Source of the DNA: Heterodontus francisci
Lineage: Eukaryota
Reading direction: 5' to 3'
Length of the DNA: 64,000 nucleotides
NCBI RefSeq assembly: GCF_036365525.1
Contig: NC_090415.1
Location: 9,052,001-9,116,000, forward strand
A model generated the notes under the pieces. The model did not search any database, was not told the DNA's origin, and saw only the letters and a list, made by a program, of their open reading frames with translations. The position numbers and the translations under genes are program-made. Positions 6,401 to 64,000 of this stretch are shown one piece after another; position 1 is the stretch's first letter; each line of letters begins with the position of its first letter.

Positions 6401-6590
6401 TGTTGCATCTACCCAAGCTTGATCCCTCTGTTTAGTTCAAAGCCCTCTCTATTTCCCTAGTTATGCAGTTTGCCAGAACACTGGTCCAAGCCGTTTCAGG
6501 TGCAGACCGTCAGAATGGTACAGCCCCCATTTTCTCCAGTAATGGTGCCAGTGCCCCATGAACTGAACCCCACTTCTCCCACACCAGTCT
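3420..6590 (-). mobile_element. Decayed CR1 LINE: end of ORF1, APE endonuclease and RT
   Basis: NAHSIHNK..IIAITETWL..GGGVA..VVYRPP (EN), GPDGLHPRVLK..DWKVANITPLFKK (RT), FRRVRGDLIEVYKIL (C-terminus); many stops and frameshifts. Confidence 0.92.
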
Positions 6591-25909: not shown

Positions 25910-26323
<414 letters not shown>

Positions 26324-38139: not shown

Positions 38140-39690
38140 ACCCCGTATCCTGAGACTGTGACCCCTGGTTCTGGACTCCCCAGCCATCGGGAACATCCTC
38201 CCTGCATTCAGCATGAATCCTGTTAGAATTTTATTGGTTTCTATGAGATCCCCTCTCATTCTTCTAAACCAAAGTAAATGTAGGCCTACTTGACCCAATC
38301 TTTCCTCGTACATCAATCCTGCCATCCCAGGAAACAAGGCGAGAACAAAATTCCGAAGATAAATAGACCAAAACTACACACAATACGGTGGCACAGTGGT
38401 TAGCACCACATCCTCATAGCTCCAGCGACATGGGTTTGGTTCTGGGTACTGCTTGTGCGGAGTTTGCAAGTTCTTCCTGTGACCATGTGGGTTTCCGCTG
38501 GGTGCTCTGATTTTCTCCCACAGCCAAAGACTTGCAGGTTGATAGGTAAATTGGCCATTGTAAATTGCCCCGAGTATAGATTGGTGGTAGGGAAGGTGGG
38601 TAGAGGTAGGGAATATGGGATTAATGTAGGATTAGTATAAATAGGTGATTGTTGGTCGGATGGGGTTAATGTAGGATTAGTATAAAAATGGGTGGTTGTT
38701 GGTCAGCACAGACTCGGTTGCCCAAAGGGCCTGGTTCAGTGCTGTATCACTCTATGACTCTAAATACTCCAGATGAGTCTCACCAAGGCCTTGTATAACT
38801 GCAGTAAGACATCTGTGCTCCGATACTCAAATCCTCTTGCAATGAAGGCCAACATACCATTTTCCTTCCTAATTGCTTGCTGCACCTGAATGCTTGCTTT
38901 CAGCGACTGATGTACAAGGACACCCAGGTCTCGTTGCACCTCCCCCTTTCCCTATCTATCACTATTCAGATAATAATCTGCTTTACTATTTTAAAACCAA
39001 AGTGGATAACTTCACTTTTATCCAATTTATATTTCATCTGCCACACAGTTGCCTACTCACCCAACTTGTCCAAATCACAATGGAGCCTTTTGCATCCTCC
39101 TCACAGCTCACAATCCCCCCCCACAAACCCCACCCCCAGCTCTGTGTCATCTGCAAACCTGGAAATGTTACCTTTACTTCCCTCACCCAAGTCTGTAAAA
39201 TATATTGTGAATAGCTGGGGCTCAAGCACAGTTTCCAGCAGTACCCCACTGGACCCTGCCTGCCACCCAGAAATATACCCATTTATTCCTACTCTGTTTC
39301 CTGTCTGTCAACTAATTCCCAATCCCTGCCAGTATATTACCCCCAATCCCATGTGCTTTAATTTTGCACACTAACCTCTTATGTCGGACTTTGTCAAAAG
39401 CCTTCTGAAAATCCAAATACACCACATCCACTAGTTCTCCGTTATCGAGTCTGCTAGTTACATCCTCAAAAAACTCCAATGGATTTGTTAAGCATGACTT
39501 CTCTTTCGTAAAACTATCACATCCTGTATAATAGACTCCAGCATTTTCCCCACTACTGATGTAAGGTTTATTGGTCTGTAAATTCCTTTTTTTTCTCTCC
39601 CTCCTTGTTTTAAATAGTGGGGTTACATTTTCCACCCTCCAATCTGTACGAACTGCTCCAGAGTCTACAGAATTTTGGAATATCCGGTAC
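38140..39690 (-). mobile_element. Decayed CR1 RT fragment interrupted by a V-SINE (38386-38765, +)
   Basis: Paralogue of 730-1645 and 48450-54780; YLDFQKAFDKV. Confidence 0.88.
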
Positions 39691-40869
39691 TTCATATGTA
39701 TCTCAGGCATTGTGGTGACAACTCTTTGTTTCACACGTTAATGTATCAATATGTGTTTACTTGTGTTTAATTTAAAATATGGATTAATGATGTTTTATTG
39801 CTGTAGGTTTTATTCAATTCTTGTTTGTGAGTTGTAGCTTTTTATCCAATTTGTATCTCTGCAAAAGCAATTGTGAATGACAATCTTTCAATTTTAGAGT
39901 ATGACCTGACATGTAATGTCAAATTCCATCGGTTTGTAGTAAATGAACTAATCCTGTATGTTTTTGTCTGACCCTTAGTGACATGTTTACACTGGTGTGT
40001 AATTTGTAGCTCAGTTTATATTGTGGGGTATGTTATTGGGATTCATTCTGTAGCTTTCAATCAGGTACATTTTGTCTGTTCTGTTTAAGATTTGGTATTT
40101 GAATTGTAGCCAAGGTGACACAGTGTATTTAAATCAGATAATGTGTGTGTTTTGGACTGTGATTCATGTATCTACCAGTCAGTTGGAGAGAAATAGAAAC
40201 AAATACTATCTCTATGCTCTGTTTGACTATTGGATTGATAATGTGTCTCTTTGGGATCAGTCTGGGTCTGACTACTTCTTTTGTTTGTTACAGTGGAAAT
40301 GATGACCTGACCGTGTCACTGTAGTTTGTGACTGATACTGTACCTAATATGTGTTGGAACGAGCTGGAGGTACGTTTCCATCTATTGGTGAGTCATGACT
40401 TTCATTCTGGTTCCTTCGAGTGTTTGCCTGGCAGATAAAAAAGGTAACTCTTACACTTGAAGAACAGGTGAGTGAGAAGACACAAAAATGATCAATGTAA
40501 TATTTTCAATATTAATCATTCTGAGCAATCACAAAAGGAAAGTTCACACATAAGCAGTGTCAGTGTCTGAGTCCACTGCAGTACTGCAGCACTCTGCTTC
40601 TGTTTCCCAGGTATTTGGAGCAGTTTTACAGCAATTTTGTGACATTCAGAAACAACCCATGCCCCACACTGCTCAATGACCCGGACGACTCAATGGAGAA
40701 GCGATATTTGCACAAGCCAGAGTTCTATTTCCATGTCCAATTGTTCAATGGACAAGAAGTAATAACTGTTTAAAAAAGTGTCCTTAATCTCCTCACCTGA
40801 TCCTGCAATAGAGAGTCTTTGAAAATCTGCCATGTCTTCATTATTTAGCCATTTTTCCCCCACCATTCA

Positions 40870-41205
40870 TCGAGAGATACTATACCTAAACAAGCTCTTC
40901 AGCCCATCGAGTCCATGCTGACCATCAACCACCCATTTATACCAATCTATATTAATCCCATTTTTGCCTCTAAAGTCCCCACTATTCTCCTACAACATAC
41001 CTACACCAGGGGCATTTTTTTTTTACAATGGCTAATTTACCTATCAACTTGCAAGTCCTTGGCATGTGGAAGGAAACCAGAGCACCCAGCGGAACCCCAT
41101 GCAGTCACAGGGAAAACTTGCAAAATCCACACAAGCTGTACGAAGAACCGGACCAATGTCACTGGAGCTGTGAGGCTGCGGTACAAGTCACTGTGCCACT
41201 CTGCC
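40870..41205 (-). mobile_element. V-SINE, duplicate of 2835-3170
   Basis: Same position in the duplicated unit. Confidence 0.8.
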
Positions 41206-41454
41206 ACCCAATTCACTATCCAACAACAACAAACAGTGAGATATTGAATCCAAACCAGGAACATTCATTACAGTTTGGAGAGAGAAATCAGAAATGATTT
41301 TGAAAAGGGAGTTCATCATATTCTGTCTCTCTCTCCCTGTCCTGACACTGCCCGAGAAAGACCTCTCCCTTTCACCTGGCTCACTCCATGTTCCGGGACC
41401 AGTTCCTGCTTCACAGTGCATATTACAAACAGTCCCCCAGTCCTGCTGAATTAG

Positions 41455-44400
41455 CAGAAGTAGACCATTCAGCCGCTCGAGCTTGCTCCGCTATTCAATT
41501 TGTTCATGGCTGATCAATTTCGGAGTTGAATTCCACACTCCCATCTATGCCTGATAATCTTTGATTCCCTTGCCTAACAAGAATCTATCTACCCCTGCCT
41601 TAAAAATATTCAATTACCCCACCTCCACCACCTTCTGAGGCAGAGAATTCCAAAGTTGCACAACCCTCGGAGAGAAAACAAATCTCATCTCAGTCCTAAA
41701 ATGGCGACCCCTAATTCGAAAACAGCATCCCCGAGTTCTGAACTCATCCACAAGAGGAAACATCCTTTCCCCATCCACTTGTCAAGACCATTCAGGATGT
41801 TATACACTTCAATCAAGTCTCCCCTCACTCTTCTAAACTCCAGTGAAGAAAAGCCCAGTCTGTCCAACCTTTCCTCATAAGACAACCCACTCATTCCAGG
41901 TATCAATCTAATAAACCTCCTGTGAAACACCTCCAACACATTTACTTCCTTCCTGAAATATGGAGACTAAAACTGCACGCAGTATTCAAGATGTGGTCAC
42001 ACCAATGCCCTGTATAACTGAAGCATAACATTCTTCCATTTATTTTCAATTCCTCTCATGATAAAGGATAGTATTCCATTTTCCTTCTTGATGACTTGCT
42101 GTACCTGCATACTAACTTTTCATGACTCATGCACCAGAACACCTAGATCCCTCTGCACCTCGGAATTATGCAGTTGTTCTCCATTTAAGTAATACTTTGT
42201 TTTTTTAATCTTCCTGACAAAGTGAACAACTTCACATTTTTTCACATTACACTTCATCTGCCAGATTTCTGACCACTCACTCAACCATCTATCAAGGTCT
42301 GCAACCTCCTTATGTCCTCTCCACAACACACTTTCCTACCGATCTGTGTGTCATCTGCAAATTTAACTGCCATGCCATTGCTCCCCTCATCTAGGTTATG
42401 GATATAAACTGTAAAAAGTTGTGGGCCCAGCACAGACCCCTGTGTTACTCCACTTATCACATCCTCCCGATCAGAATGTTTTCTGTCAGCCAGCCAATCT
42501 TCTATCCATGCTAATTAAGTTACCCACTACACCATGAACTCCTGCTTTGCACAATAACCTTTCATGTGACACCTTGACAAAGGCCTTCTTGAAAACCAAA
42601 TACTGTATGTCAATGGGCTCCCCTTTATCCCCAGTGCATTTTCCTCCTTGAAAGAACTCGAACACTTTGGTTAACCATGATTTCCCTTTCACATAGCCAT
42701 GCTGAACATTTCCAATGACCTTGTGTTTTTCTAAATGCCCAGCTATAGCCTCCTTAATGATCAATTCGAACGCCTTCCCTGAATCAGGGGTCAAGCTAAC
42801 TATCCTCTCGTTACCCGATTTCTGCCTCCCCACCTTCTTGAATAGAATGGTTATATTTGCTACTTTCCAGTCTGATGGAACCTTTCTAGAATCTAGCGAA
42901 TCTTGAAAAAATAACGAGTCAACTATTTCAGCAGCCATAACTTTAAGGACCCGAGGATGAAGCCCATCAGGACCCAGAGACTTGTCAGCCAGCAGCTCCA
43001 TCAGTTTACTCAGTACCACTTCCCTGGTGATTGTAACTTCACCAAGTTCCTCTCTTCCTTCCACCTCCTGATTTACTGCTATTACTGAAATATTTTGTGT
43101 ATCCTCTAGTGAAGACAGAAGCCAAATAATTGTTCATTTCAACCACCATTTCCTTATTATCTACTATTAACTCCCCATTCTCATTCTCTAAAGGACCAAC
43201 ACTCACTTTACTTACACTTTTCCTTATTAAATACCTATAGAAAATCTTGCTATCCGTTTTTACATTTCTAGCTAGTTCTGTCATAATCTAATTTATTTTC
43301 CCCTGATTAACCTTTCAGTCATTCTCTGCCATTCATTATATTCTGACCAATCATCTGACCTGCCACTCGTCTTTGCACAATTCTATGCTTTTTCATTAAG
43401 GTTGAGGCTATCCTTAACTTCTTTAGTGAACAATGGATGGTGGGTCCTCCCCTTGGAATTTTACTTTACTGTAGGAATATACTTCCTTTGAGTGTTCAGA
43501 AATATCACCTTCAATGTCTGCTACTGCTTCTCTATTGATTTATCTCCTAGCCTAGTAACCCAGTTCAATTCAGCTAGCTCAACTTTCATGCCCACATAGT
43601 TGTCCTTATTTAAGTTTAAAATACTAGTCTTAGACCCACTCCTCTCAATTTCAAACTGGATGCAAAATTCAGTCATATTGTGGTTGCTGCTACCTAGAGG
43701 TGCCTTTACACTGAGGTCATTAATTAATCCTGTCAAATTACACAATACCAAATCTAATATAACCTGGTTCCAGAATGTACTGCTCGAAGAAACTATCTCA
43801 AAAGCATTCTATGAACTCCTCGTCCAGGCTGCTGTAACCAATCTCATTTTTCCAGTTTATATGTTGAATAAAATCCCCATTATTATTTCCATCCCTTTAT
43901 CACAAGCACCCAAAATTTGTTCTTGTATACTTCACCCGACATTGTCATTATTGCTCGGTGGCCAGTACACGACTCCTACTAGTGACTTCTTTCCCCGACT
44001 ATTCCTCATTGTCACCCAAACCGATTCTACATCCTGATCTCCTGAACCAAGGTCATCTCTAACTATTGCACCAATGCCATCCTTGATTAACAGTGCAACC
44101 CTTTCACCTTTATCTAACTTCCTCTTCTTCTTGAATGCTGTATACCCCTCAATATTCAGGACCCAACCATTGTTATCTTGTAACCATGTCTCTGTAATGG
44201 TTATTATATCATATTGATTTACTTCAATGTGCACTATCTGTTCCTCTACCTTGTTATGAATGCTATGTGCATTCACATACAGAGCCTTATATTGTTGTTA
44301 TCTTTGTAACACCTCGTGTTGACTGTTGCTGTGTTCTTAGGTTTTTTTCTCTCTGTCCCTTCCGCCATTCACTGGTCTTCATTTCCCATATTACTATTCT

Positions 44401-44535
44401 GCTCTCTTACCTTGATTCTACCCCTTGATTTGTTGCACCTACCCAAGCTTGATCCATCTACCCCTTTGTTTAATTCAAAGCCCTCTCTGCTTCCCTAGTT
44501 ATACAGTTTGCCAGAAAACTGGTCCCAGCATGTTT
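41455..44535 (-). mobile_element. Decayed CR1, duplicate of 3420-6590
   Basis: ORFs 41685, 42486, 43521 and 43932 give EN and RT pieces. Confidence 0.92.
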
Positions 44536-44539
44536 ACCT

Positions 44540-46025
44540 CTCAATTCCCTAGTCTACAATTTATCTCTCTCAGTTTCTGATTTTGAGTGTGAGTATATCT
44601 GTACCTGTTTTGTGTGAGAACCGTCTTATTCTGTATCTTTCAGATTTTGATGTGTCTGTGTGTCTGGCTTGTACTTGGTCCCCATCAGTTTAGGGTATGT
44701 GAGTGTGGATTTGACTGTTAATATTCCATTCTTGGGAATATGAGTGGGGGTTCACACTTCATCATTGAGTGTCCAGTAGGCCAATTTAAGGTTTAATCTG
44801 TGCCCTTAAATTTCTAATTTGTAGCTATGGTTTTTATCCTGTCACTGTCACTATCTGTTATAAGAGTAAGGGGTACATTCTGGTTTTTGATTGTGGATTT
44901 TTCACCACATCTCTACATTGTCTCGGATGTGAATGTGATTTTTAATCTGTACATGCCAGTTTCTGACATATGTCTCTGAGGTTTAATTTGTACATGTCAT
45001 TCGTAGGTATGTGAGTGCCAATTTTATTCTGAACCTCTCAGTTTCCTTTACCTGTGTGCGAGTTTTAGTCTGTATCTGTCAGTATCTGGTATATGAATCT
45101 TCTTCCTTATGCGTATGTTTTGCTCTGTATTTGTCAGTGTCTGAAGTGCCAATTGTCAGGTTTTCTTTGTACCTGTCACTCTCTGTTATGCATCACAGAC
45201 TTTCCCTCTCTAACTGTAAATTTTTTACAATTCACTGTGGATTTCACTCTGTGTCTGTCAGTCTCTGGTAGTTAAGTGTGGTTTTTATACTTCATCTCCT
45301 AATTTCTGATCTGTGAATGTAGATTTTAATCTGTACCTTTTGGCTTCTAGTGTGCGAGTCTGTGTTTCAATCTGTATCTACCAGTTTCTCAATGTGAGGG
45401 TGGCATTTATTCTGTACCAGTTACTTTCTGAAATGTGTGAAGATTTCAATCTTTCCCTGTCAGTTTCTGGTATGTGAATGTGGGTTTATTCTGGATCTTT
45501 CAATCTTTGGAATTTGACTACATGCTTTATCCTATACCTTTTTGCTTCTGTTAAGTGAATGAAGGATTAGATCTGTACCTGTCCATTGATAGTAAATGAA
45601 TATCTGTTTTAGTCTGTACCTGGCAGTTTATGGCAAAGTAAGGTGGTTTATTTCTCGACCTGCCAGATTCTGATCTGTGACTGTTGTTTTATTCTGTACC
45701 TGTTATTTTCTGTGATATGAATCTGGTTTTTAATCTGTATCTGTCAGTTACTGTTACTTGACTGAGTTTCACTTTGCACCAGTTGGTTTCTGGTATGTGA
45801 GTGTCAGTTTTAAGTTGTACCTGTAAAGTTAAGGTATGACAGTGTGGGTTTATTCTGTATCTTTCAAACTCTAGTGTGTGATATGGGTTTTTTTATCTCT
45901 GAATCTTTTGTTTTCTGGTCTGTAAGTTTGTGTTCTTATCTGCATCTTACAGTTCCTTATAGGTGTCTGTGTGCACATTTCCTTTTTCTGCAGCTATCAA
46001 CGTCTGCAGCGTGAGTATGTGTAAT
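44540..46025. repeat. Degenerate 40-bp tandem repeat (clearest block)
   Basis: TCTGTACC-like motif near 45411, 45451, 45491, 45531, 45572, 45613, 45653, 45693 and 45734. Confidence 0.85.
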
Positions 46026-46029
46026 GTGT

Positions 46030-47965
46030 GAAGACCAAGGCAAAATTTTGGTATAAATTATTTGCCATTTCCCTGTACCACATTATCAGTCCCCCAGTTG
46101 CATCCTCTGAGGTCCCCTCACTCACTTTAGCTGATCTCGTTCTTTTTATATACCCGGAGAAGCTCTCGCTGTTTGTTTATATATTTCTTGGCAATTTACT
46201 GTCAGAATCAATGTTCCCCCTCTTTATTCACTTTTTAGTCATCCGTTGCTGATTCCTAAAATATTCCCAATCCCCTGGCCCACTACTTGTTTTTCCCTCT
46301 TTGTTTGCCTAAGTTTTTAATTGGATATTCTCCTTGACAGACTTTGTTAATCGCAGATGCTTCATCCTTCTCTTTTTGACTGGGGTAAATTTTTGCTCAG
46401 CATTATGAAATATCTGTTTAAATGTCTGCCACTGCTCATCCACTGACCTTCCCCTTAGTCCATTTTCCCAGCCCGCTTTAGACAACTCTTTCTTCATACC
46501 ACAGCAATTGCCCTTGTTTAATTTGAGGACACTGGTTTGAGACCCGAGTTGCTCGCCCTCAAACTGAATTTGAAATTCTACCATGTTGTGATCACTACCC
46601 CATAGAGGATCCTTAACTACAATATCTCTTGTTAATCCTATCACATTACACATTACTAGATCCAAAATAACCTGTTCCTGGGTATGTTCTGCAATGTATT
46701 GATCGAAGTAACAGTCCCTGATACACTCGACAAATTCACCTTCCATATTACCTCTGCCAATCTGATTTCTCCTGTCAATATGCAGATTAAAATCACTCGT
46801 GACGATTGTAGCACCCTTCTTACACAGCTCCATTATTTCCCGATTTATACTTTGTCCTGCAGTGAGACAGCTCTTCAGGGGCCTATGGATGACTCCCACC
46901 CGTGACTTCTTCCCTTTGCTATTCTTTATTTCCACCCAAATCGATTCCACATCATGATCTATTGCACCTATTTCACTACTCAACACCACACTGATACCTT
47001 CCTTTATTAACAAAGCTACCCCACCTCCTTTTCCTTTATGCCTATTTTTCCAGAGCATTGTGTACCCTAGAATATTGAGTTTCCAGTCTTGGTCACCCTG
47101 CAACTACGTCTCTGTAATAGCTATCAAGTCACATTCATTTAGTTCTATTTGTGCCGCCAACTGATCTATCTTGTTACAAATGCTGTGTGCATTCAGATAA
47201 AGAGGCTTTGACTTTTTATCATTATTATTCATTCTGGTTCTAATTTCTGCTGAACTCTGCTGCTTATATTAGCTGCACCTTCCTGTCATACTTTGATTAC
47301 CGTTTGCCTCTTCACTACTCTGTACCTCTGTTCTCTCATTCCTTTTTGATTTTTTAAACTTCCCTTCAATTGAACGCCACCCCCCACCCCACACTAATAA
47401 ATTTAAAGTCCTATCTACAACCCTAGTTATATGATTCGCCAGGACATTGGTCCCAGCATGGTCCAAATGAAGCCTGTCCCAGTGGAACAGCTCTCTCCTT
47501 TCCCAGTACTGGTGCCAGTGCCCCAGGAATTGGAACCCGTTTCTCCCACACCAATCTTTGAGCCATACGTTTACCTCTATAATCTGATTTACCCTACACC
47601 AATTTGCACGTTGCTCTGGTAGCATTCTGGAGAGTATTACCTTTCTGGTTCTGCTTTTTAATTTAGCCCCGAGCTGCTCATAGGCCCTGAGCAGAAGCGG
47701 ATTCCTTGTCCGACCGATGTGGACCAAGACAGCTGGATCCTTCCCCTCCCACTCCAAGTTACATTGGCAACACAGCCTTTGGGACTCCCTGTTATTGATG
47801 CCAGAGAATGGAATCTATTCTCCTAAATCTGCAATCCCCTATTACTAATCTCCCCATTGAATAGCGCTCTGAACCACGGTGCTGTGGACAGTTTGCTCAT
47901 CCTCCCTGCAGCCTGTGCCCTCGTCCACACAGGGAGCAAGAAGCTCATACCTATTGGATAAGGGC
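46030..47965 (-). mobile_element. Decayed CR1: ORF1 SGNH esterase-like domain and ORF2 endonuclease
   Basis: DPAVLVHIG..WLKDWCGRNGFQFLGHWHQYW..DRLHL; KGGGVALLIK..SDFN..ILDLV..SDHNMV. Confidence 0.9.
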
Positions 47966-56130: not shown

Positions 56131-56364
56131 CTTATATTATACCTGGGATATTGGATCTGACCGAGGAACATTCATTACAGTTTGGAGAGAGAAATCAGCA
56201 AACATTTTCAATAGGGAGTTCATCATGTTCTGTCTCTATCTTCCCCTGTCCAGACACTGTCCGAGAAAGACGTCTCCTTTTCCCCGGCTCACTCCATGTT
56301 CCGAGACCAGTTCCTGCTTCACAGTGCATATTACAAGCAGTCCCCCAGTCCCGCTGAATTAGCA

Positions 56365-59300
56365 GAAGTATTCCATTCAGCCCCTCGAGCTTGCTCCGCC
56401 ATTCAATTTGTTAATAGCTGATCTGTTTTTGACTCAAATTCCACACTCCTATCTACTCCCAATAATGTGTGATTCCCTTGCCTAACAAGAATCGATCTAC
56501 CCCCACCTTAAATATATTCAATGACCCTGTCACCACCACCTTCTGAGGCAGAGAATTGCAAAGTCACACAACCCTCAGAGAAAAAAAACTCCTCATCTCT
56601 GTCCTAAAATAGCGACCCCTAATTCTAAAACAGTGCCCCCGAGTTCTGAACTCATTCACTACAGGAAACATCCTTTCCACATGCATCTTGTCAAGACCAT
56701 TCAGGATCTTATATACTTCAATCAAGTCTCCCCTCACTCTTCTAAACTCCAGTGGAAAAAAAAAACACTCTGTCCAACCTTTCCTCTTAAGACAACCCAG
56801 TCATTCCAGGTATCAATCTAGTAAACCTCCTCTGAACCACCTCCAACATATTTACTTCCTTCCTTCAAGATGCAGACCAGAACTGCACACAGTATTGGAG
56901 ATGTGGTCACACCAATGCCCTGTATAACTGAAGCATATCATCTTACATTTATTTTCAATTCCTCTCGTAATAAAGGATAGCATTCCCTTTGTCTTCTTTA
57001 TGACTTGCTGTATGTGTATACTAAACTTGTGACTCATGCACTAGAACACTTCGATTTCTCTGCACTTCGGAATTATGTAGTCATTCTCCGTTTAGGTAAA
57101 ACTCTGCTTATTAACCTTCCTGACAAAGTGAACAACTTGACATTTTTTCACATTATACTTCATCTGCCAGATTTCTGACCACTCACTCAACCATCTATGT
57201 CAGTCTGCAACCTCCTTCTGTCCTCTTCACAACATACTTTCCTACCTATCTGTGTGTCATCTGCAAATTTAGCTGCCATGCTATTGCTCCCCTCATCTAA
57301 GTCATGGATATAAATTCTAAAAAGTTGGAGGCCCAGCACAGACCCCTGCGTTACTCCACTCGTCACTTCCGCCCAATCAGAAGAGGACCCATTTCTGCAT
57401 ACTCTCTGTTTTATGCCAGCCAGCCAATCTTCTATACATGCAAATGAATTACCCACTACACCATGAACTCCTACTTTTCACAATAACCTTTCATATGGCA
57501 CCTTGACAAAGGCCTTCTTGAAAACCAAATACTGTATGTCAATGGGCTCCCCTTTATCCCCAGTGCATTTTCCTCCTTGAAAGAACTCTAATACTTTGGT
57601 TAACCATGATTTCCCTTTCACATAGCCATGCTGAACATTTCCAATGACCTTGTGTTTTTCTGTATGCCCAGCTAAAGCCTCCTTAATGATCAATTCTAAT
57701 GCCTTCCCTGAATCAGGGGTCAAGCTAACTATCCTCTCGTTACCCGATTTCTGCCTCCCCACCTTCTTGAATAGAAGGGTTATATTTGCTACTTTCCAGT
57801 CTGATGGAACCTTTCTAGAATCTAGCGAATTTTGAAAAATTAACAACGAATTGACTACTTCAGCAGCCATAACTTTAAGGACCCGAGGATGAAGCCCATC
57901 AGGACCCAGAGACTTGTCAGCCAGCAGCTCCATCAGTTTACTCAGTACCACTTCCCTGGTGATTGTAACTTCACCAAGTTCCTCTCTTCCTTCCACCTCC
58001 TGATTTACTGCTATTACTGAAATATTTTGTGTATCCTCGAGTGAAGACAGAAGCCAAATAATTGTTCATTTCAACCACCATTTCCTTATTATCGACTATG
58101 AACCCCCCATTCTCATTCTCTCGATGACCATCACTCACTTTACTTACACTTTTCCTTTTTAAATACCTATAGAATCTCTTGCTCTCCGTTTTTACATTTC
58201 CAGCTAATTTGCTGTCAAAATCTAATTTATTTTCCCCTGATTAACCTTTTAGTTATTCACTGCCGTTCATTATATTCTGACCAATCATCTGACCTGCCAC
58301 TCGTCTTTACACAATTATATGCTTTTTCCTTAAGATTGAGGTTATCCTTAACTTCTTTAGTTAACAATGGATGGTGGGTCCTCCCCTTGGAATTTTACTT
58401 TACTGGAGGAATATACTTAATTTGAGTATTCTGAAATATCCCCTTAAATGTCTGCTACTGCTTCTCTTTAGATCTATCTCCTAGCCTAGTCACCCAGTTC
58501 AATTCAGCTAGCTCAGTTCAATTCAGCTAGCTCAGCTTTCATGCTCACATAGTTGTCCTTATTTAAGTTTAAAATATTAGTCTTAGACCCACTCCTCTCA
58601 CTTTCAAACTGGATGCAAAATTCAATCATATTGTGGTTGCTGCTACCTAGAGGTGCCTTAACTCTGAGGTCATTAATTAATTCAGTCGAATTACACAATA
58701 CCAAATCTAATATAACCTGCTCGCTGGATGGTTCTAGAATGTACTGCTCTAAGAAACTATCTCAAAAGCATTCTATGCACTCCTCATCCAGGCTACTTTT
58801 ACCAATCTGATTTTTTTTCCCAGTTTATATGTTGATTAAAATCCCCATTATTATTTCCATCCCTTTATCACAAGCACCCAATATTTCTTCTTGTCTACTT
58901 CATCCTACACTGTCATTATTGCTTGGGGGCCTGTACACAACTCCCACTAGTGACTTCTTTCCCTGACTATTCCTCATCGTCACCCAAACCGATTCTACAT
59001 CCTGATCTCCTGAAGCAAGGTCATCTCTTAATATTATACCAATGCCATCCTTGATTAACAGTGAAACCCCTCCTCCTTTACCTAGCTTCCCATTCTTATT
59101 GAATGTTAAATACCCCTCAATATTGAGGAACCAATCCTTGTTATCTTTCAGCCATGTCTCTGTAATGGCTATTATATCATATTTCTTTACTTCACCGTGC
59201 ACTATCTGTTCCTCGACCTTGTTATGAATGCTATGTGCATTCACATACAGAGCCTTATCTTTTTAACATCTAGTGTTGACTGTTGGTGTGTTCTTCGGTT

Positions 59301-59590
59301 TTTTCTCTCTGAGCCTTCCCACCATTCACTGGTCTTCATTTCCCATATTACTATTCTGCTCTCTTGCCTTGGCACCACCCCTTGATTTGTTACATCTACC
59401 CAAGCTTGATCCCTCTAACCCTTTGTTTTGTTCAAAGCCCTCTCTACTTCCCTAGTTATGCAGTTTGCTAGAACACTGGTCACAGCACGTTTCAGGTGCA
59501 GACCATCAGAATGGCACAGCCCCCATTTTCCCCAGTAATGATGCCAGTGCCCCACGAACTGAATCCCACTTCTCCCACACCAGTCTGTGG
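56365..59590 (-). mobile_element. Decayed CR1, third duplicate of 3420-6590
   Basis: ORFs 57187, 57478, 58513 and 58900. Confidence 0.92.
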
Positions 59591-59599
59591 GGGTCTAAG

Positions 59600-61380
59600 T
59601 TTCACTGTATATCTCTAAATTCCCTAGTCTACAATTTAACTCTCTCAGTTTCTGACTTTGAGTATATCCACACCTGTTTTATGTGAGATCCGTCTTATTC
59701 TGTACCTTTCAGCTTTTCGTGTGTCTCTGTGTCTGGCTTGTACTTTGTCCCCAACAGTTTAAGGCATATGAGTGTGGATTTGACTGTTAATATTACGTCC
59801 TCGGGAATATGAGTGGGGGTTTGCACTTCATCTTTGATTGTCTAGTAGGCCAATTTAAGGTTTAAGCTGTGCCCTTAAATTTCTAATGTGTAGCTGTGGT
59901 TTTTATCCTGTCGCAGTCACTATCTGTTATAAGAGTAAAGGGTACATTCTGTTTTTTGATTGTGGATTTTTCACCACATCTCTACATTGTCTCGGATGTG
60001 AATGTGATTTTTAATCTGTACATGCCAGTTTCTGACATATGGCTCTGAGGTTTAATTTGTACATGTCATTCTCTGGTATGTGACTGCCAATTTTATTCTG
60101 AAACTGTCAGTTTCCTTTACCTGTTTGCGAGTTTTAGTTGGTATCTGTCAGTATCCGGTATATAAATCTTCTTCCTTATGTGTATGTTTTGTTCTGTCTT
60201 TGTCAGTGTCTGAAGTGCCAATTGTTAGGTTTTCTTTGTACCTGTTAATCTCTGTTACAGATGAGAGACTTTCACTCTCAAACTGTAAATTTCTTGCAAT
60301 TCACTATGGATTACACTCTGTGTCTGTCAGTCTCTGGTAGTTAAGTGTGGCTTTTATATTTCAACTCCTAATTTCTGAGATGTGATTGGAGATTTTAATC
60401 TGTACCTTTTGGTTTCCAGTGTGCGAGTCTGTGTTTCAATCTGAATCTGCCAGTTTCTCATATGTGAGGATGGCATTGATTCTGTACCTGTTACTTTCTG
60501 AAATGTGTGAAGGTTTTAATCTCAGAGATACAGCACCAAAACAAGCTCACAAGTCCACGCCACCCATCAACCACCCATATAAACTAATACTACATTACTC
60601 CCATTCTCCCACCACCTACCTTCACGTGGAGCATTTTTTTTTTACAATGGCCGATTTACATATTAACCGACAATTCTTTGGCATGTGGGAGACAAACAGA
60701 GCACCTGGAGCAGACCCACACAGTCACAGGGAGAACTTGCAAACTCCACACAGGCAGTACCCAGAACTGGCAGTACCCAGAACTGAACCTAGGTTGCTAG
60801 AATTATGAAGGGCTCTGCGGTACTAACCACTGTGCCACTGTCAGTTTCTGGGAGCTGAATATGGGTTTACTCTGGATCTTTCAATCTTTGGAATTTGAGT
60901 ACGTGTTTTACCCTATACCTTTCAGCTTCTGTTAAGTGAATATGGGATTACATCTGTACCTGCCCATTGATAGTAAATTAATATCTGTTTTAGTCTGTCC
61001 CTGGCAGTTTATGGAAAATTTAAGGTGGTTTATTTCTCTACCTGCCAGATTCTGATATGTGACTGTTGTTTTATTCTGTACCTGTTATTTTCTACGATAT
61101 GCTTCTGTTTTTTGATCTGTACCTGTCAGTTGCTGTTAGCTGAGTGAGTTTTACTTTACACCAGTTGATTTCTGGTATGTGAGTATCAGTTTTAAGTTGT
61201 ACCTGTAAAGTTAAGGTATGACAGTGTGGGTTTATTCTGTATCTTTCAAACTCCAGTGTGTGATATGGGTTTTTCCTCTGAATCTGTCGATTTCTGGTCT
61301 GTAAGTTCCTGATAGGTGTATGTCTGCAGAATTCCTTTTTCTGCACCTATTAATGTCTGCTACGTGAGTATGTGTAATGT
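59600..61380. repeat. Degenerate 40-bp tandem repeat, duplicate of 44540-46025, with a V-SINE at about 60520-60840 (-)
   Basis: Collinear with the 44.5-46 kb block; SINE absent there. Confidence 0.85.
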
Positions 61381-62105: not shown

Positions 62106-62391
62106 ATTTACTGGCAGAATCAATTTTCCCTCTCTTTATGAGCTTTTTAGTCGTCTGCTGCTGATTCTTAAAATATTCCCAATCCCCTGGCCAGCCACTA
62201 GTTTTTGCCTCTTTGTATGCCTTAGTTTTTGATTGGATATTCTCCTTGGCAGCATTTATTAACCACAGATGGTTCATCCTTCTCTTTTTGACTGGGATAA
62301 ATTTTTGCTCAGCATTATGAAATATCTGTTTAAATGCCTGCCACTGCTCATCCACTGACCTTCCCCTTAGTCCATTTACCCAGCCCGCTTT

Positions 62392-62758
62392 AGAGGGGGA
62401 GCAGCCAGAGGTCGTGGTGCACATTGGCACCAACGACGTAGGAAGGAAGGGTGGCACAGATGTTAGAAGTGAGTTTAGGGAGTTAGGCTGGAAGCTGAAA
62501 GCTCGGACGGACAGAGTTGTTATCTCTGGTTTGTTGCCGGCGCCACGTGATAGTGAGGCTAGGAATAGGGAGAGAGCACAGCTGAACACGTGGCTGCAGG
62601 AATGGTGTGGGAGGGAGGGCTTCCAGTTCTTGGATAATTGGACTGCATTCTGGGGAAGATGGGACCTGTTCAAACAGGACGGGCTGCATCTGAACCAGAG
62701 GGGCACCAATATCCTGGGAGGGAGGTTTGCTAGTACTGTTCGGGAGGGTTTAAACTAG
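62392..62758 (+). mobile_element. Young CR1, ORF1 C-terminal part (SGNH esterase-like), 5'-truncated
   Basis: GEQPEVVVHIGTND..VVISGLLP..LNTWLQEWCGREGF..DGLHLNQRG; stop TAG at 62756-62758. Confidence 0.92.
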
Positions 62759-64000
62759 TTTGGGAGGGGGATGGGAACCGGACTTGTAGTCCAGGGACCA
62801 GTGGGTCCACTCAGAAAGACAAAGAGTGTAGTGAGGTATTGGGGAAGGTAGCACTGTCGCAGAGGACAGATGGGCACGGAGAAGGGTTAAAGTGCGTATA
62901 CTTCAACGCAAGAAGCATCAGGAATAAGGTGAGTGAATTGAAGGCGTGGATGGGCACTTGGGACTACGATGTTGTGGCCATCACTGAAACGTGGATAGGT
63001 GAGGGGGAGGAATGGTTCTTGGAGGTACCTGGTTATAGATGTTTTCATAAGATTAGGAATGGTGGTAAAAGAGGTGGGGGGGTGGCATTGTTAGTTAGAA
63101 ATAGTGTAACAACTGCTGAAAGAATTTTCGAGGAGGATCTGCCGACTGAGGCACTGTGGGTTGAGGTCAGGAACAGGAAAGGAGCAGTCACCTTGATGGG
63201 AGTTTTCTATCGGCCCCCCAATAGCAGCAGGGAGGTGGAAGAGCAGATTGGGAAACAGATTTTGGAAAGGAGCAGAAGTCACAGGGTAGTAATTATGGGG
63301 GATTTCAACTTCCCAAATATTGATTGGCAACTCTTTAGATCGAATAGTTTGGATGGGGTAGTGTTTGTGCAGTATGTCCAGGAAGCTTTTCTGACTCAGT
63401 ATGTAGACTGCCCGACCAGAGGGGAGGCAATATTGGATTTGGTACTAGGTAATGAACCAGGGCAAGTGATAGAGCTGTTGGTGGGCGAGCACTTTGGAGA
63501 TAGTGATCACAATTCTGTAGCATTCACTGTGGTAATGGAGAGGGATAGGTATGTGCAACAGGGCAAGGTTTACAATTGGGGGAAGGGTAGATATGATGCT
63601 GTCAGGCAGGAACTGAGGAGCATAAGTTGGGAGCATATGCTGGCAGGGAAGGGCACGGTCGAAATGTGGAACTTTTTCAAGGAGCAGATAGTAGGGGCCA
63701 TTGATAAGCATGTCCCTGTCAGACAGGGAAGGGATGGTCATGTGAGGGAACCGTGGTTGACAAGAGAGGTTGAGAGTCTTGTTAGGAAGAAGAAGGATGC
63801 GTATATAAGGTTGAGGAAAAAGGGCACAGGCATAGCTCTGGAGGGATACAAGATGGCCAGGAAGGATCTGAAGAAAGGGATTAGGAGAGCTAAGAGAGGG
63901 CATGAAAAATGCTTGGCGGGTAGGATAAAAGAAAACCCCAAGGCCTTTTACGCGTATGTCAGAAATATGAGGATGACTAGGGGGACCGTAGGTCCGGTCA
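62749..64000 (+). CDS. Young CR1 ORF2 (APE endonuclease and linker), open to the window end; missing from the ORF track
   Basis: Manual translation: LKCVYFNARSIRNK..VVAITETW..GGGVALLV..FYRPP..MGDFNFP..ILDLVL..SDHN..KENPKAFYAY; no stop from 62734 to 64000. Confidence 0.92.

What the first reader, a model, noticed from the sequence alone, without database searches (positions are those of the whole stretch)
62730..62955. CR1 ORF1/ORF2 junction looks like a programmed -1 ribosomal frameshift cassette
Seen: ORF1 ends CGG GAG GGT TTA AAC TAG. This contains two overlapping X XXY YYZ heptamers in the correct phase, G GGU UUA (62746-62752) and U UUA AAC (62749-62755), directly before the stop. ORF2 is in the -1 frame and is open from 62734 to the window end. 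Its first in-frame ATG is at 62950, after the endonuclease motif YFNARS, and the two intervening ATGs (62771, 62870) are out of frame and stop quickly. Six nt after the heptamer come G runs (GGGAGGGGGATGGG) and two hairpins (GGACT-TGT-AGTCC at 62780-62792, GGACC-AGTG-GGTCC at 62795-62808). Established: UUUAAAC is the coronavirus slippery site and GGGUUUA the yeast L-A virus site, whereas L1 ORF2 is made by reinitiation. Inference: this LINE may make an ORF1-EN-RT fusion by frameshifting. Older CR1 copies here keep decayed versions at the same spot on the minus strand (ACTTTAAAT near 47405, GCTTTGAACTAA near 6435). I cannot tell whether this has already been reported for CR1.
Basis: partly seen in the sequence, partly recalled or inferred. 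Interest (0 to 1): 0.75.

Follow-up and report, generated by a model that had tools for sequence, protein, structure and literature searches.

The report
Conserved ribosome-slip site in CR1 retrotransposons
A jumping gene of the CR1 family, abundant in sharks, reptiles and birds, ends its first gene with a virus-style slippery sequence and a stop that relatives from sharks to crocodiles keep, so its second gene is likely made when ribosomes slip back one base, which would answer how these elements produce their copying enzyme.

Summary
In detail: a 5'-truncated shark/ray-type CR1 LINE ends its esterase ORF1 in T_TTA_AAC TAG; ORF2 continues in the -1 frame, and its first ATG lies inside the endonuclease and is ATA in three of four related runs. 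The site is conserved far beyond chance: 68 of 101 distant ORF1 proteins end in LN, GN or KN (background 0.9%), the endings forced by U_UUA_AAC, G_GGA_AAC and A_AAA_AAC, and the residue before them switches as those heptamers demand. One distant locus shows G_GGA_AAC TAG directly; published shark, crocodilian, lizard, frog and fish consensus sequences show TTTAAAC-stop. The two hairpins are neither significant nor conserved; a G-run 6-20 nt downstream is conserved. Against: 3 of 18 consensus junctions have a TAATG stop-start, some relatives have in-frame Met in the linker, and no frameshift was measured. Best reading: programmed -1 frameshifting to an ORF1-ORF2 fusion (0.77). Ten library searches found no CR1 report; three older CR1 papers were unreadable; Dictyostelium TRE5-A is a LINE precedent. 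The scan noted the same idea before in other genomes.

The parts
62393..62758 (+). 3' part of CR1 ORF1 (SGNH/GDSL esterase domain), 5'-truncated; ends ...EGLN-stop
   Evidence: Pfam Lipase_GDSL_2 E 1.6e-13; 58-97% identity to 30 shark/ray-type ORF1 proteins; upstream 62125-62382 is a minus-strand CR1 ORF2 fragment
62749..62755 (+). Main slippery heptamer T_TTA_AAC, in phase, directly before the ORF1 stop
   Evidence: conservation
62746..62752 (+). Overlapping second heptamer G_GGT_TTA (shark-lineage feature, not general)
   Evidence: Gly before LN in 19 of 26 close relatives but 4 of 56 distant ones
62756..62758 (+). ORF1 stop TAG; TAA or TGA in relatives, always directly after the heptamer
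   Evidence: (loose ends)
62762..62779 (+). Conserved G-rich element after a 6-nt spacer (ORF2-frame Gly-x-Gly, both GGG); candidate stimulator, possibly a two-tier G-quadruplex; holds an out-of-frame ATG at 62771
   Evidence: divergent subfamilies align only over about 62726-62779; same register in 7 of 19 supplement junction rows read by eye; top G4Hunter window of 1596 in the element, partly due to the private G at 62764
62780..62808 (+).
   Evidence: z about 0; 62789 G>A in run X4 and 62805 G>T in X16, X19 and part of X14 break pairs; most subfamilies diverge after 62779
62734..63999 (+). CR1 ORF2 frame (-1 to ORF1), open to window end: about 45-codon linker, then APE endonuclease
   Evidence: Pfam Exo_endo_phos E 1.4e-20 from residue 56 = profile position 2; L1 endonuclease and ExoIII matches
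62899..62916 (+). First endonuclease motif YFNARS, upstream of any in-frame ATG
62950..62952 (+). First in-frame ATG of ORF2 (residue 73, aligned to L1 ORF2p residue 31); ATA in relatives
   Evidence: alignment; 62952 G>A at essentially full depth in X14, X16, X19, not in X4

Best explanation
This is the ORF1/ORF2 junction of a CR1 LINE, where ORF1 ends in an in-phase slippery heptamer and a stop, and a minority of ribosomes likely slip back one base there and would go on into ORF2 to make an ORF1-endonuclease-reverse transcriptase fusion. Shown: the heptamer, its phase, the adjacent stop, the open -1 frame, no usable ATG in this copy, and conservation with switches among U_UUA_AAC, G_GGA_AAC and (from protein endings) A_AAA_AAC. 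Inferred: tandem slippage of tRNA-Leu and tRNA-Asn from UUA AAC to UUU AAA, resumption at CUA (62755-62757), most ribosomes terminating to give ORF1p in excess, and help from the adjacent stop and the G-run 6-20 nt downstream. Whether the fusion is later cleaved is unknown.
For: Anatomy. ORF1p C-termini: of the best 150 representatives, 111 align over the DGLHL motif and 101 have a 20-45 aa tail; 68 of 101 end LN (56), GN (10) or KN (2) against 0.9% background, whatever the tail length (24-39 aa); 26 of 28 in the close set. Residue before LN is one that cannot end in U (E/Q/K/M/W) in 1 of 56 (background 18%), but Q in 9 of 10 before GN; after collapsing relatives 1 of 30 vs 6 of 7 (Fisher p 2e-5) at 60% and 1 of 24 vs 3 of 4 (p 0.005) at 50%. 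Locus L001 (35% identical) reads CAG GGA AAC TAG with ORF2 in -1. KN and LN enders nest in the GN clade. These three heptamers are listed among the most shifty for mammalian ribosomes (PMC5009743). TTTAAAC-stop in 18 published consensus rows from sharks, rays, chimaera, coelacanth, bowfin, a teleost, frog, lizard and crocodilians, stop varying TAG/TAA/TGA (motif-selected). Junction is an island of conservation among divergent subfamilies. Terminal EGLN lies outside the last helix of the model, and two tree clades lack the ending.
Against: No frameshift measured. No conserved hairpin or pseudoknot; no meaningful Rfam match. 33 of 101 tails do not end LN/GN/KN (3 have it within the last six residues; two clades of 6 and 3 rows lack it; 34 of 58 and 12 of 21 collapsed clusters have it). 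3 of 18 consensus junctions have TAATG with ATG in the ORF2 frame; L001 has an ORF2-frame ATG four codons before its heptamer and two more before its endonuclease motif; six called ORF2 relatives start at or contain Met in the linker (set biased to proteins with a callable start). One duplicated local copy has TTG AAC. Linker substitutions are synonymous in the ORF2 frame in only 5 of 11 shown rows, weak. 39 of 79 variant rows were not shown, so invariance of 62749-62758 in those runs is not proven. GN and KN codons are seen as DNA in one locus only (GN) or not at all (KN).
Confidence: 0.77

Rival explanations
1. Termination-reinitiation: ribosomes stop at the ORF1 stop and restart on the overlapping -1-frame codon (AUG in a UAAUG stop-start as in SART1, or a non-AUG codon as tolerated by L1 and caliciviruses), giving a separate ORF2p.
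For: TAATG in 3 of 18 consensus junctions (two of them close relatives) and TAGTG in two more; ORF2-frame ATG shortly before the stop in L001; SART1 and L1 use such routes, and restart codon changes are tolerated (PMC5972666, PMC3708506 passages).
Against: Does not explain X_XXA_AAC conservation or the Q-GN / non-Q-LN switch. The codon overlapping the stop is GTT here and varies freely (GGT, AGC, GCT, AAT, ACT, GAA and others). Only 12 of 68 LN/GN/KN enders have the Cys/Trp in their last 15 residues that an upstream -1-frame ATG requires. A scanning ribosome would meet the out-of-frame ATG at 62771 (G at -3 and +4) first (inference).
Confidence: 0.12
2. Mixed strategy: frameshifting is ancestral, but some subfamilies add or switch to stop-start reinitiation or a linker AUG.
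For: Subfamilies with both the heptamer and TAATG; linker Mets in P0195-P0200.
Against: TAATG can arise by a TAG-to-TAA change before a TG already present in sister subfamilies (TAGTG rows); linker Mets are at non-homologous places.
Confidence: 0.06
3. The conserved ending is a protein motif (ORF1p C-terminal LN, or FKL at the start of ORF2p), and ORF2 is reached by internal initiation or splicing at the TAG.
For: Most of the distant evidence is protein-level; TAG could be a splice acceptor in principle.
Against: L, G and K interchange before N while the -3 residue follows codon rules; EGLN is outside the last helix with lower confidence; the stop is also TAA or TGA, which removes the AG; the upstream sequence is purine-rich.
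Confidence: 0.03
4. Transcriptional slippage adds a base at the T3A3 or G3A3 run so that ordinary translation reads a fused frame.
For: Gives the same fused product; three database proteins (P0018, P0029, P0084) run from ORF1 into the FKL frame.
Against: Runs are only three bases long; phase to the ORF1 frame is fixed, as a ribosomal site needs; no indel row at the junction in the four runs laid (table 4; contigs only, they drop rare variants); the three proteins are more simply copies with an indel or bridged gene models.
Confidence: 0.02

Closest known systems
Canonical -1 programmed ribosomal frameshifting at X_XXY_YYZ (coronavirus IBV U_UUA_AAC; retroviral gag-pol type; PMC5009743 passages)
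   Same: In-phase heptamer from the most shifty set, -1 overlap, structural/RNA-binding ORF first and enzyme ORF second, candidate signal starting 6 nt downstream (usual spacer 5-9 nt).
   Different: Host is a non-LTR element with no protease; no pseudoknot or stable stem found; stop directly after the heptamer; conserved 3' element is a G-run; frameshifting not measured.
Dictyostelium TRE5-A and TRE3-A (APE-type LINEs said to require a -1 frameshift for ORF2; PMC5911963 figure legend)
   Same: Non-LTR element with overlapping ORFs and ORF2 in the -1 frame.
   Different: Different clade and ORF1; the passages seen give no slippery sequence or measurement; here a canonical heptamer is conserved and covaries across a large animal clade.
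SART1 UAAUG termination-reinitiation and mammalian L1 unconventional reinitiation (PMC5972666, PMC3708506 passages)
   Same: Bicistronic LINE RNA, low ORF2 output decided at the ORF1 stop; UAAUG occurs in 3 of 18 CR1 consensus junctions.
   Different: This copy has neither UAAUG nor a spacer with an AUG before the endonuclease; product there is a separate ORF2p.
Canonical vertebrate CR1 with esterase ORF1 (type IVB; PMC4120745, PMC13343379 passages)
   Same: Esterase ORF1 followed by APE-RT ORF2; 22% or more of elasmobranch genomes is CR1-group DNA per that paper.
   Different: Those papers show no hit for 'frameshift' or 'overlap'; ORF2 translation is not addressed in the passages seen.

Membership tests
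CR1 LINE with esterase ORF1 | ORF1 with SGNH esterase domain | tested here: met
   Pfam Lipase_GDSL_2 52 bits over cutoff 32.9
CR1 LINE with esterase ORF1 | ORF2 with N-terminal APE endonuclease | tested here: met
   Pfam Exo_endo_phos E 1.4e-20; L1 EN structures
CR1 LINE with esterase ORF1 | Reverse transcriptase domain in ORF2 | tested here: inconclusive
   Beyond the window end; the closest ORF2 relative P0195 (74% over the matched part) carries PF00078
CR1 LINE with esterase ORF1 | Placement in the CR1 clade by RT phylogeny; 3' microsatellite tail | not testable with these tools
   RT and 3' end lie outside the window and no genome is held; rows labelled CR1 in PMC13343379 match the junction region by eye
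Canonical -1 programmed frameshift cassette | X_XXY_YYZ heptamer in phase with the upstream ORF | tested here: met
Canonical -1 programmed frameshift cassette | Downstream ORF in the -1 frame, overlapping the site, without its own usable start | tested here: met
   Met for this copy and its family; not universal among relatives
Canonical -1 programmed frameshift cassette | Evolutionary conservation of the heptamer in phase | tested here: met
Canonical -1 programmed frameshift cassette | 3' stimulatory structure 5-9 nt downstream | tested here: inconclusive
   Hairpins not significant or conserved; conserved G-run, two-tier G-quadruplex predicted for the window but not for L001
Canonical -1 programmed frameshift cassette | Measured frameshifting or transframe product | not testable with these tools
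   needs reporter, ribosome profiling or MS
SART1-type UAAUG termination-reinitiation | Overlapping stop-start with AUG in the ORF2 frame | tested here: not met
   This copy reads TAG TT; present in 3 of 18 consensus rows
L1-type reinitiation | Non-overlapping ORFs with a spacer and an ORF2 AUG before the endonuclease | tested here: not met
   ORFs overlap by 25 nt and the first ATG is inside the endonuclease

The most novel reading that the evidence does not exclude
The whole esterase-ORF1 CR1 clade, the dominant LINE of sharks, reptiles and birds and of unnamed distant hosts, has made its ORF2 protein as a Gag-Pol-like ORF1-ORF2 fusion by -1 frameshifting for hundreds of millions of years, swapping among the three most shifty heptamers, and the stimulator is the adjacent stop plus a conserved G-run folding as a G-quadruplex: a natural G-quadruplex frameshift stimulator, which a 2016 review called anticipated but not known.
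Probability: 0.17. Interest if true: 0.92.

Novelty: new variant of a known kind. Interest (0 to 1): 0.72.

Why it matters
How two-gene LINEs translate ORF2 is called unclear in the literature seen (PMC3708506), with reinitiation as the worked-out route for L1 and SART1. CR1 is the dominant retrotransposon of most vertebrates (PMC13343379). A conserved -1 frameshift would mean its enzyme is born fused to the esterase ORF1 protein at a set ratio, as in retroviruses, that CR1 ORF2 annotations starting at a downstream Met lose part of the endonuclease, and that any CR1 expression construct must keep the junction intact. The signal is about 30 nt long and can be tested with a standard reporter.

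Tried and rejected
No whole genome is held. Viral contigs gave no ORF1 relatives (alignment A4 unusable); plasmids none. Metagenome and genome scans gave 20 loci at 23-40% identity; only 3 of 20 (L001, L003, L011) showed an ORF2 hit behind the esterase, and only L001 has the heptamer layout. The invariant LN in alignment A1 is not used as evidence, because its 18 relatives were picked after their ends were seen; counts come. Hairpins as stimulator rejected. Local older copies rejected as independent support. Rfam: one match at E 1.6, far under its cutoff. Supplement of PMC4316615: 4 passages, all 3'-end or flanking DNA, one file not searched. Supplement of PMC13343379 shows only the first 400 bases of each consensus, so fractions of conserved junctions cannot be counted: the endonuclease-anchored search showed 5 junctions (3 TTTAAAC, 1 cut at TAAAC, 1 degenerate low-quality); the upstream-anchored search showed 7 of 7 with TTTAAAC-stop, but its terms were partly taken from rows already seen. 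The careful tree did not finish; the quick tree is used. Runs with small word shares (X15-X20) are not taken as habitat evidence; only X4, X14, X16, X19 of 24 were laid. No complex prediction was sent.

Full report
1. Observation. The window's last 1.6 kb is a 5'-truncated CR1 LINE on the + strand. From about 62393 an esterase frame (Pfam Lipase_GDSL_2, E 1.6e-13) ends CGG GAG GGT TTA AAC TAG; GGGTTTA (62746-52) and TTTAAAC (62749-55) are in X_XXY_YYZ phase and are the only such heptamers in the 121 ORF1 codons held. The -1 frame is open from 62734 to the window end and encodes an APE endonuclease (E 1.4e-20, from residue 56 = profile position 2). Its first ATG (62950, residue 73) aligns with residue 31 of L1 ORF2p, so starting there would drop the first strand and the Asn of NARS; changing the conserved Asn of the Zorro3 endonuclease cut retrotransposition below 5% (PMC1965478, passages; equivalence of the two Asn is my inference). 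The closest named ORF1 relatives are from sharks and rays. No genome is held.

2. Close relatives. Contigs of four runs from four organisms (X4, X14, X16, X19; 4 of 24 listed) were laid on 62560-63100. Many divergent subfamily contigs align only over about 62726-62779 and leave on both sides; depth peaks there in X4 and X16. ATG 62950 is ATA in X14, X16 and X19. No difference at 62749-62758 is among the 40 rows shown, but 39 rows were hidden. Hairpin 1 is broken in X4, hairpin 2 in X16, X19 and part of X14, and folding is no better than shuffles, so the hairpins are rejected. Position 62764 is C in most relatives. Upstream of the stop 13 of 23 shown differences are synonymous third positions of ORF1; in the linker 5 of 11 are synonymous in the ORF2 frame, none makes an ORF2 stop, and one subfamily's linker differs by 6 bases (table 5): consistent with a translated linker, but weak. 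Three local copies with TTG AAC/AAT lie in segmental duplications and share a linker stop, so they are one dead ancestor.

3. Distant relatives, protein level. phmmer over 50%-identity representatives gave 2702 hits; the best 150 were examined. 111 align over the DGLHL motif; 10 with tails under 20 or over 45 aa were dropped; of 101, 56 end LN, 10 GN, 2 KN (68; background 0.9%), with tails of 24-39 aa; 26 of 28 in the close set end LN. These are the endings forced by U_UUA_AAC, G_GGA_AAC and A_AAA_AAC before a stop, which PMC5009743 lists among the most shifty heptamers for mammalian ribosomes (passage). The heptamer also fixes the last base of the preceding codon: E, Q, K, M, W cannot precede LN, and do so in 1 of 56 (background 18%), while Q precedes GN in 9 of 10 and S precedes KN in 2 of 2. 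After single-linkage collapse the contrast is 1 of 30 vs 6 of 7 (p 2e-5) and 1 of 24 vs 3 of 4 (p 0.005); 34 of 58 and 12 of 21 clusters carry the ending. On a quick tree built without the tested residues, KN and one LN nest within the GN clade, and two clades (6 and 3 rows) lack the ending altogether. Named LN-enders are turtles, lizards, a swallow, a sturgeon and an eel; the GN/KN-enders are unnamed. In an AlphaFold model of a 97%-identical full ORF1p the last helix ends at 290 of 294, leaving EGLN outside.

4. Distant relatives, DNA level. L001 (35% identical) ends CAG GGA AAC TAG with ORF2 in the -1 frame. In Supplementary Table 2 of PMC13343379 (first 400 bases of each consensus only) 18 rows show TTTAAAC plus TAG, TAA or TGA at the ORF1 end, from sharks, rays, elephant shark, coelacanth, bowfin, a halosaur, bullfrog, bearded dragon, alligator and crocodile (found by the motif, so not a fraction; two further junction rows have the heptamer without a stop). 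Searches anchored on other motifs showed 3 intact, 1 cut and 1 degenerate of 5 and 7 of 7 (terms partly chosen from rows seen). In 7 of 19 rows read by eye the ORF2 frame goes on with Gly-x-Gly, both GGG, in the window's register; most others are G-rich but unresolved, two are not. This stretch is the top G4Hunter window of the element and folds as a two-tier quadruplex in ViennaRNA for the window, not for L001; it is a lead only.

5. Results against. TAATG with an ORF2-frame ATG occurs in 3 of 18 rows; L001 has an ORF2-frame ATG four codons before its heptamer; six called ORF2 relatives have Met in the linker at scattered places. A third of the tails lack the ending. No stimulatory structure is established, and nothing here measures translation.

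6. Mechanism. Most likely, ribosomes reaching UUA AAC with a stop next slip back one base and resume at CUA, giving a minority ORF1-EN-RT fusion while most terminate (0.77). A stop near the shift site is needed in pea enation mosaic virus (PMC5009743), so the stop may help; that is inference. Reinitiation, with or without AUG (0.12), or a mix (0.06), remains open but does not explain the heptamer's covariation, and a scanning ribosome would first meet the out-of-frame ATG at 62771.

7. What is known. Ten full-text searches listed no paper on frameshifting in CR1. PMC5009743 has no 'CR1' in the first 300,000 of 449,034 characters and treats L1 as initiation; PMC13343379, PMC4120745, PMC3905857 and PMC3708506 have no 'frameshift'. 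PMC5911963 says Dictyostelium TRE5-A and TRE3-A need a -1 frameshift (legend passage), so a frameshifting LINE is not without precedent. All these were seen as passages; PMC5972666, PMC5633606, PMC4700185, PMC4255032 and PMC13405545 likewise; PMC4316615 as a supplement search only. Kajikawa 1997, Haas 1997 and Kapitonov and Jurka 2003 were not held (nothing seen) and may mention the overlap; subscription papers, Repbase reports and bioRxiv supplements were not searched. The scan's own notes hold the same idea from three other genomes; they are not counted as support.

8. Verdict. Real, conserved, and most likely a programmed -1 frameshift: a known mechanism in the main LINE family of non-mammalian vertebrates, not found in the searchable literature. 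New variant of a known kind; interest 0.72.

Noticed in passing
L011:1326-1331 and L004:1642-1647: Two distant esterase-ORF1 LINE loci end ORF1 in TGA CTA; in L011 the endonuclease frame continues in the same frame, a layout like stop-codon readthrough (UGA-CUA context recalled), though L011 also has Met codons before its endonuclease motif.
   Followed up: partly
L003:1498-2350: Esterase and endonuclease lie in one open frame with no stop between them: natural fusion or a copy with an indel.
   Followed up: no
P0075, P0102, P0141 (tree clade): A sub-clade within the GN group ends FF plus one residue, which could hide a U-run slippery site; no DNA seen.
   Followed up: no
P0001: An ORF1 protein 97% identical to this element is filed in NCBI as Pseudomonas aeruginosa on a 4.2-kb contig; probably animal DNA contamination.
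   Followed up: no
window:49344-54634: Tandem array of a 36-base unit, 147 copies, 96% matches.
   Followed up: no
window:700-7150, 38734-45450, 56144-60520: Three segmental duplicates (88-96% identical) carrying the same old CR1 insertion.
   Followed up: partly
window:21885-22793 and 25910-26323: Histone H1-like and histone H3 reading frames, recognised by sequence; the window seems to include part of a histone gene cluster.
   Followed up: no
PMC13343379 Suppl. Table 2, row AldAff_Crack-2: A consensus labelled Crack carries an esterase-like ORF1 end and the CR1-type TTTAAAC-stop junction; possibly a CR1.
   Followed up: no
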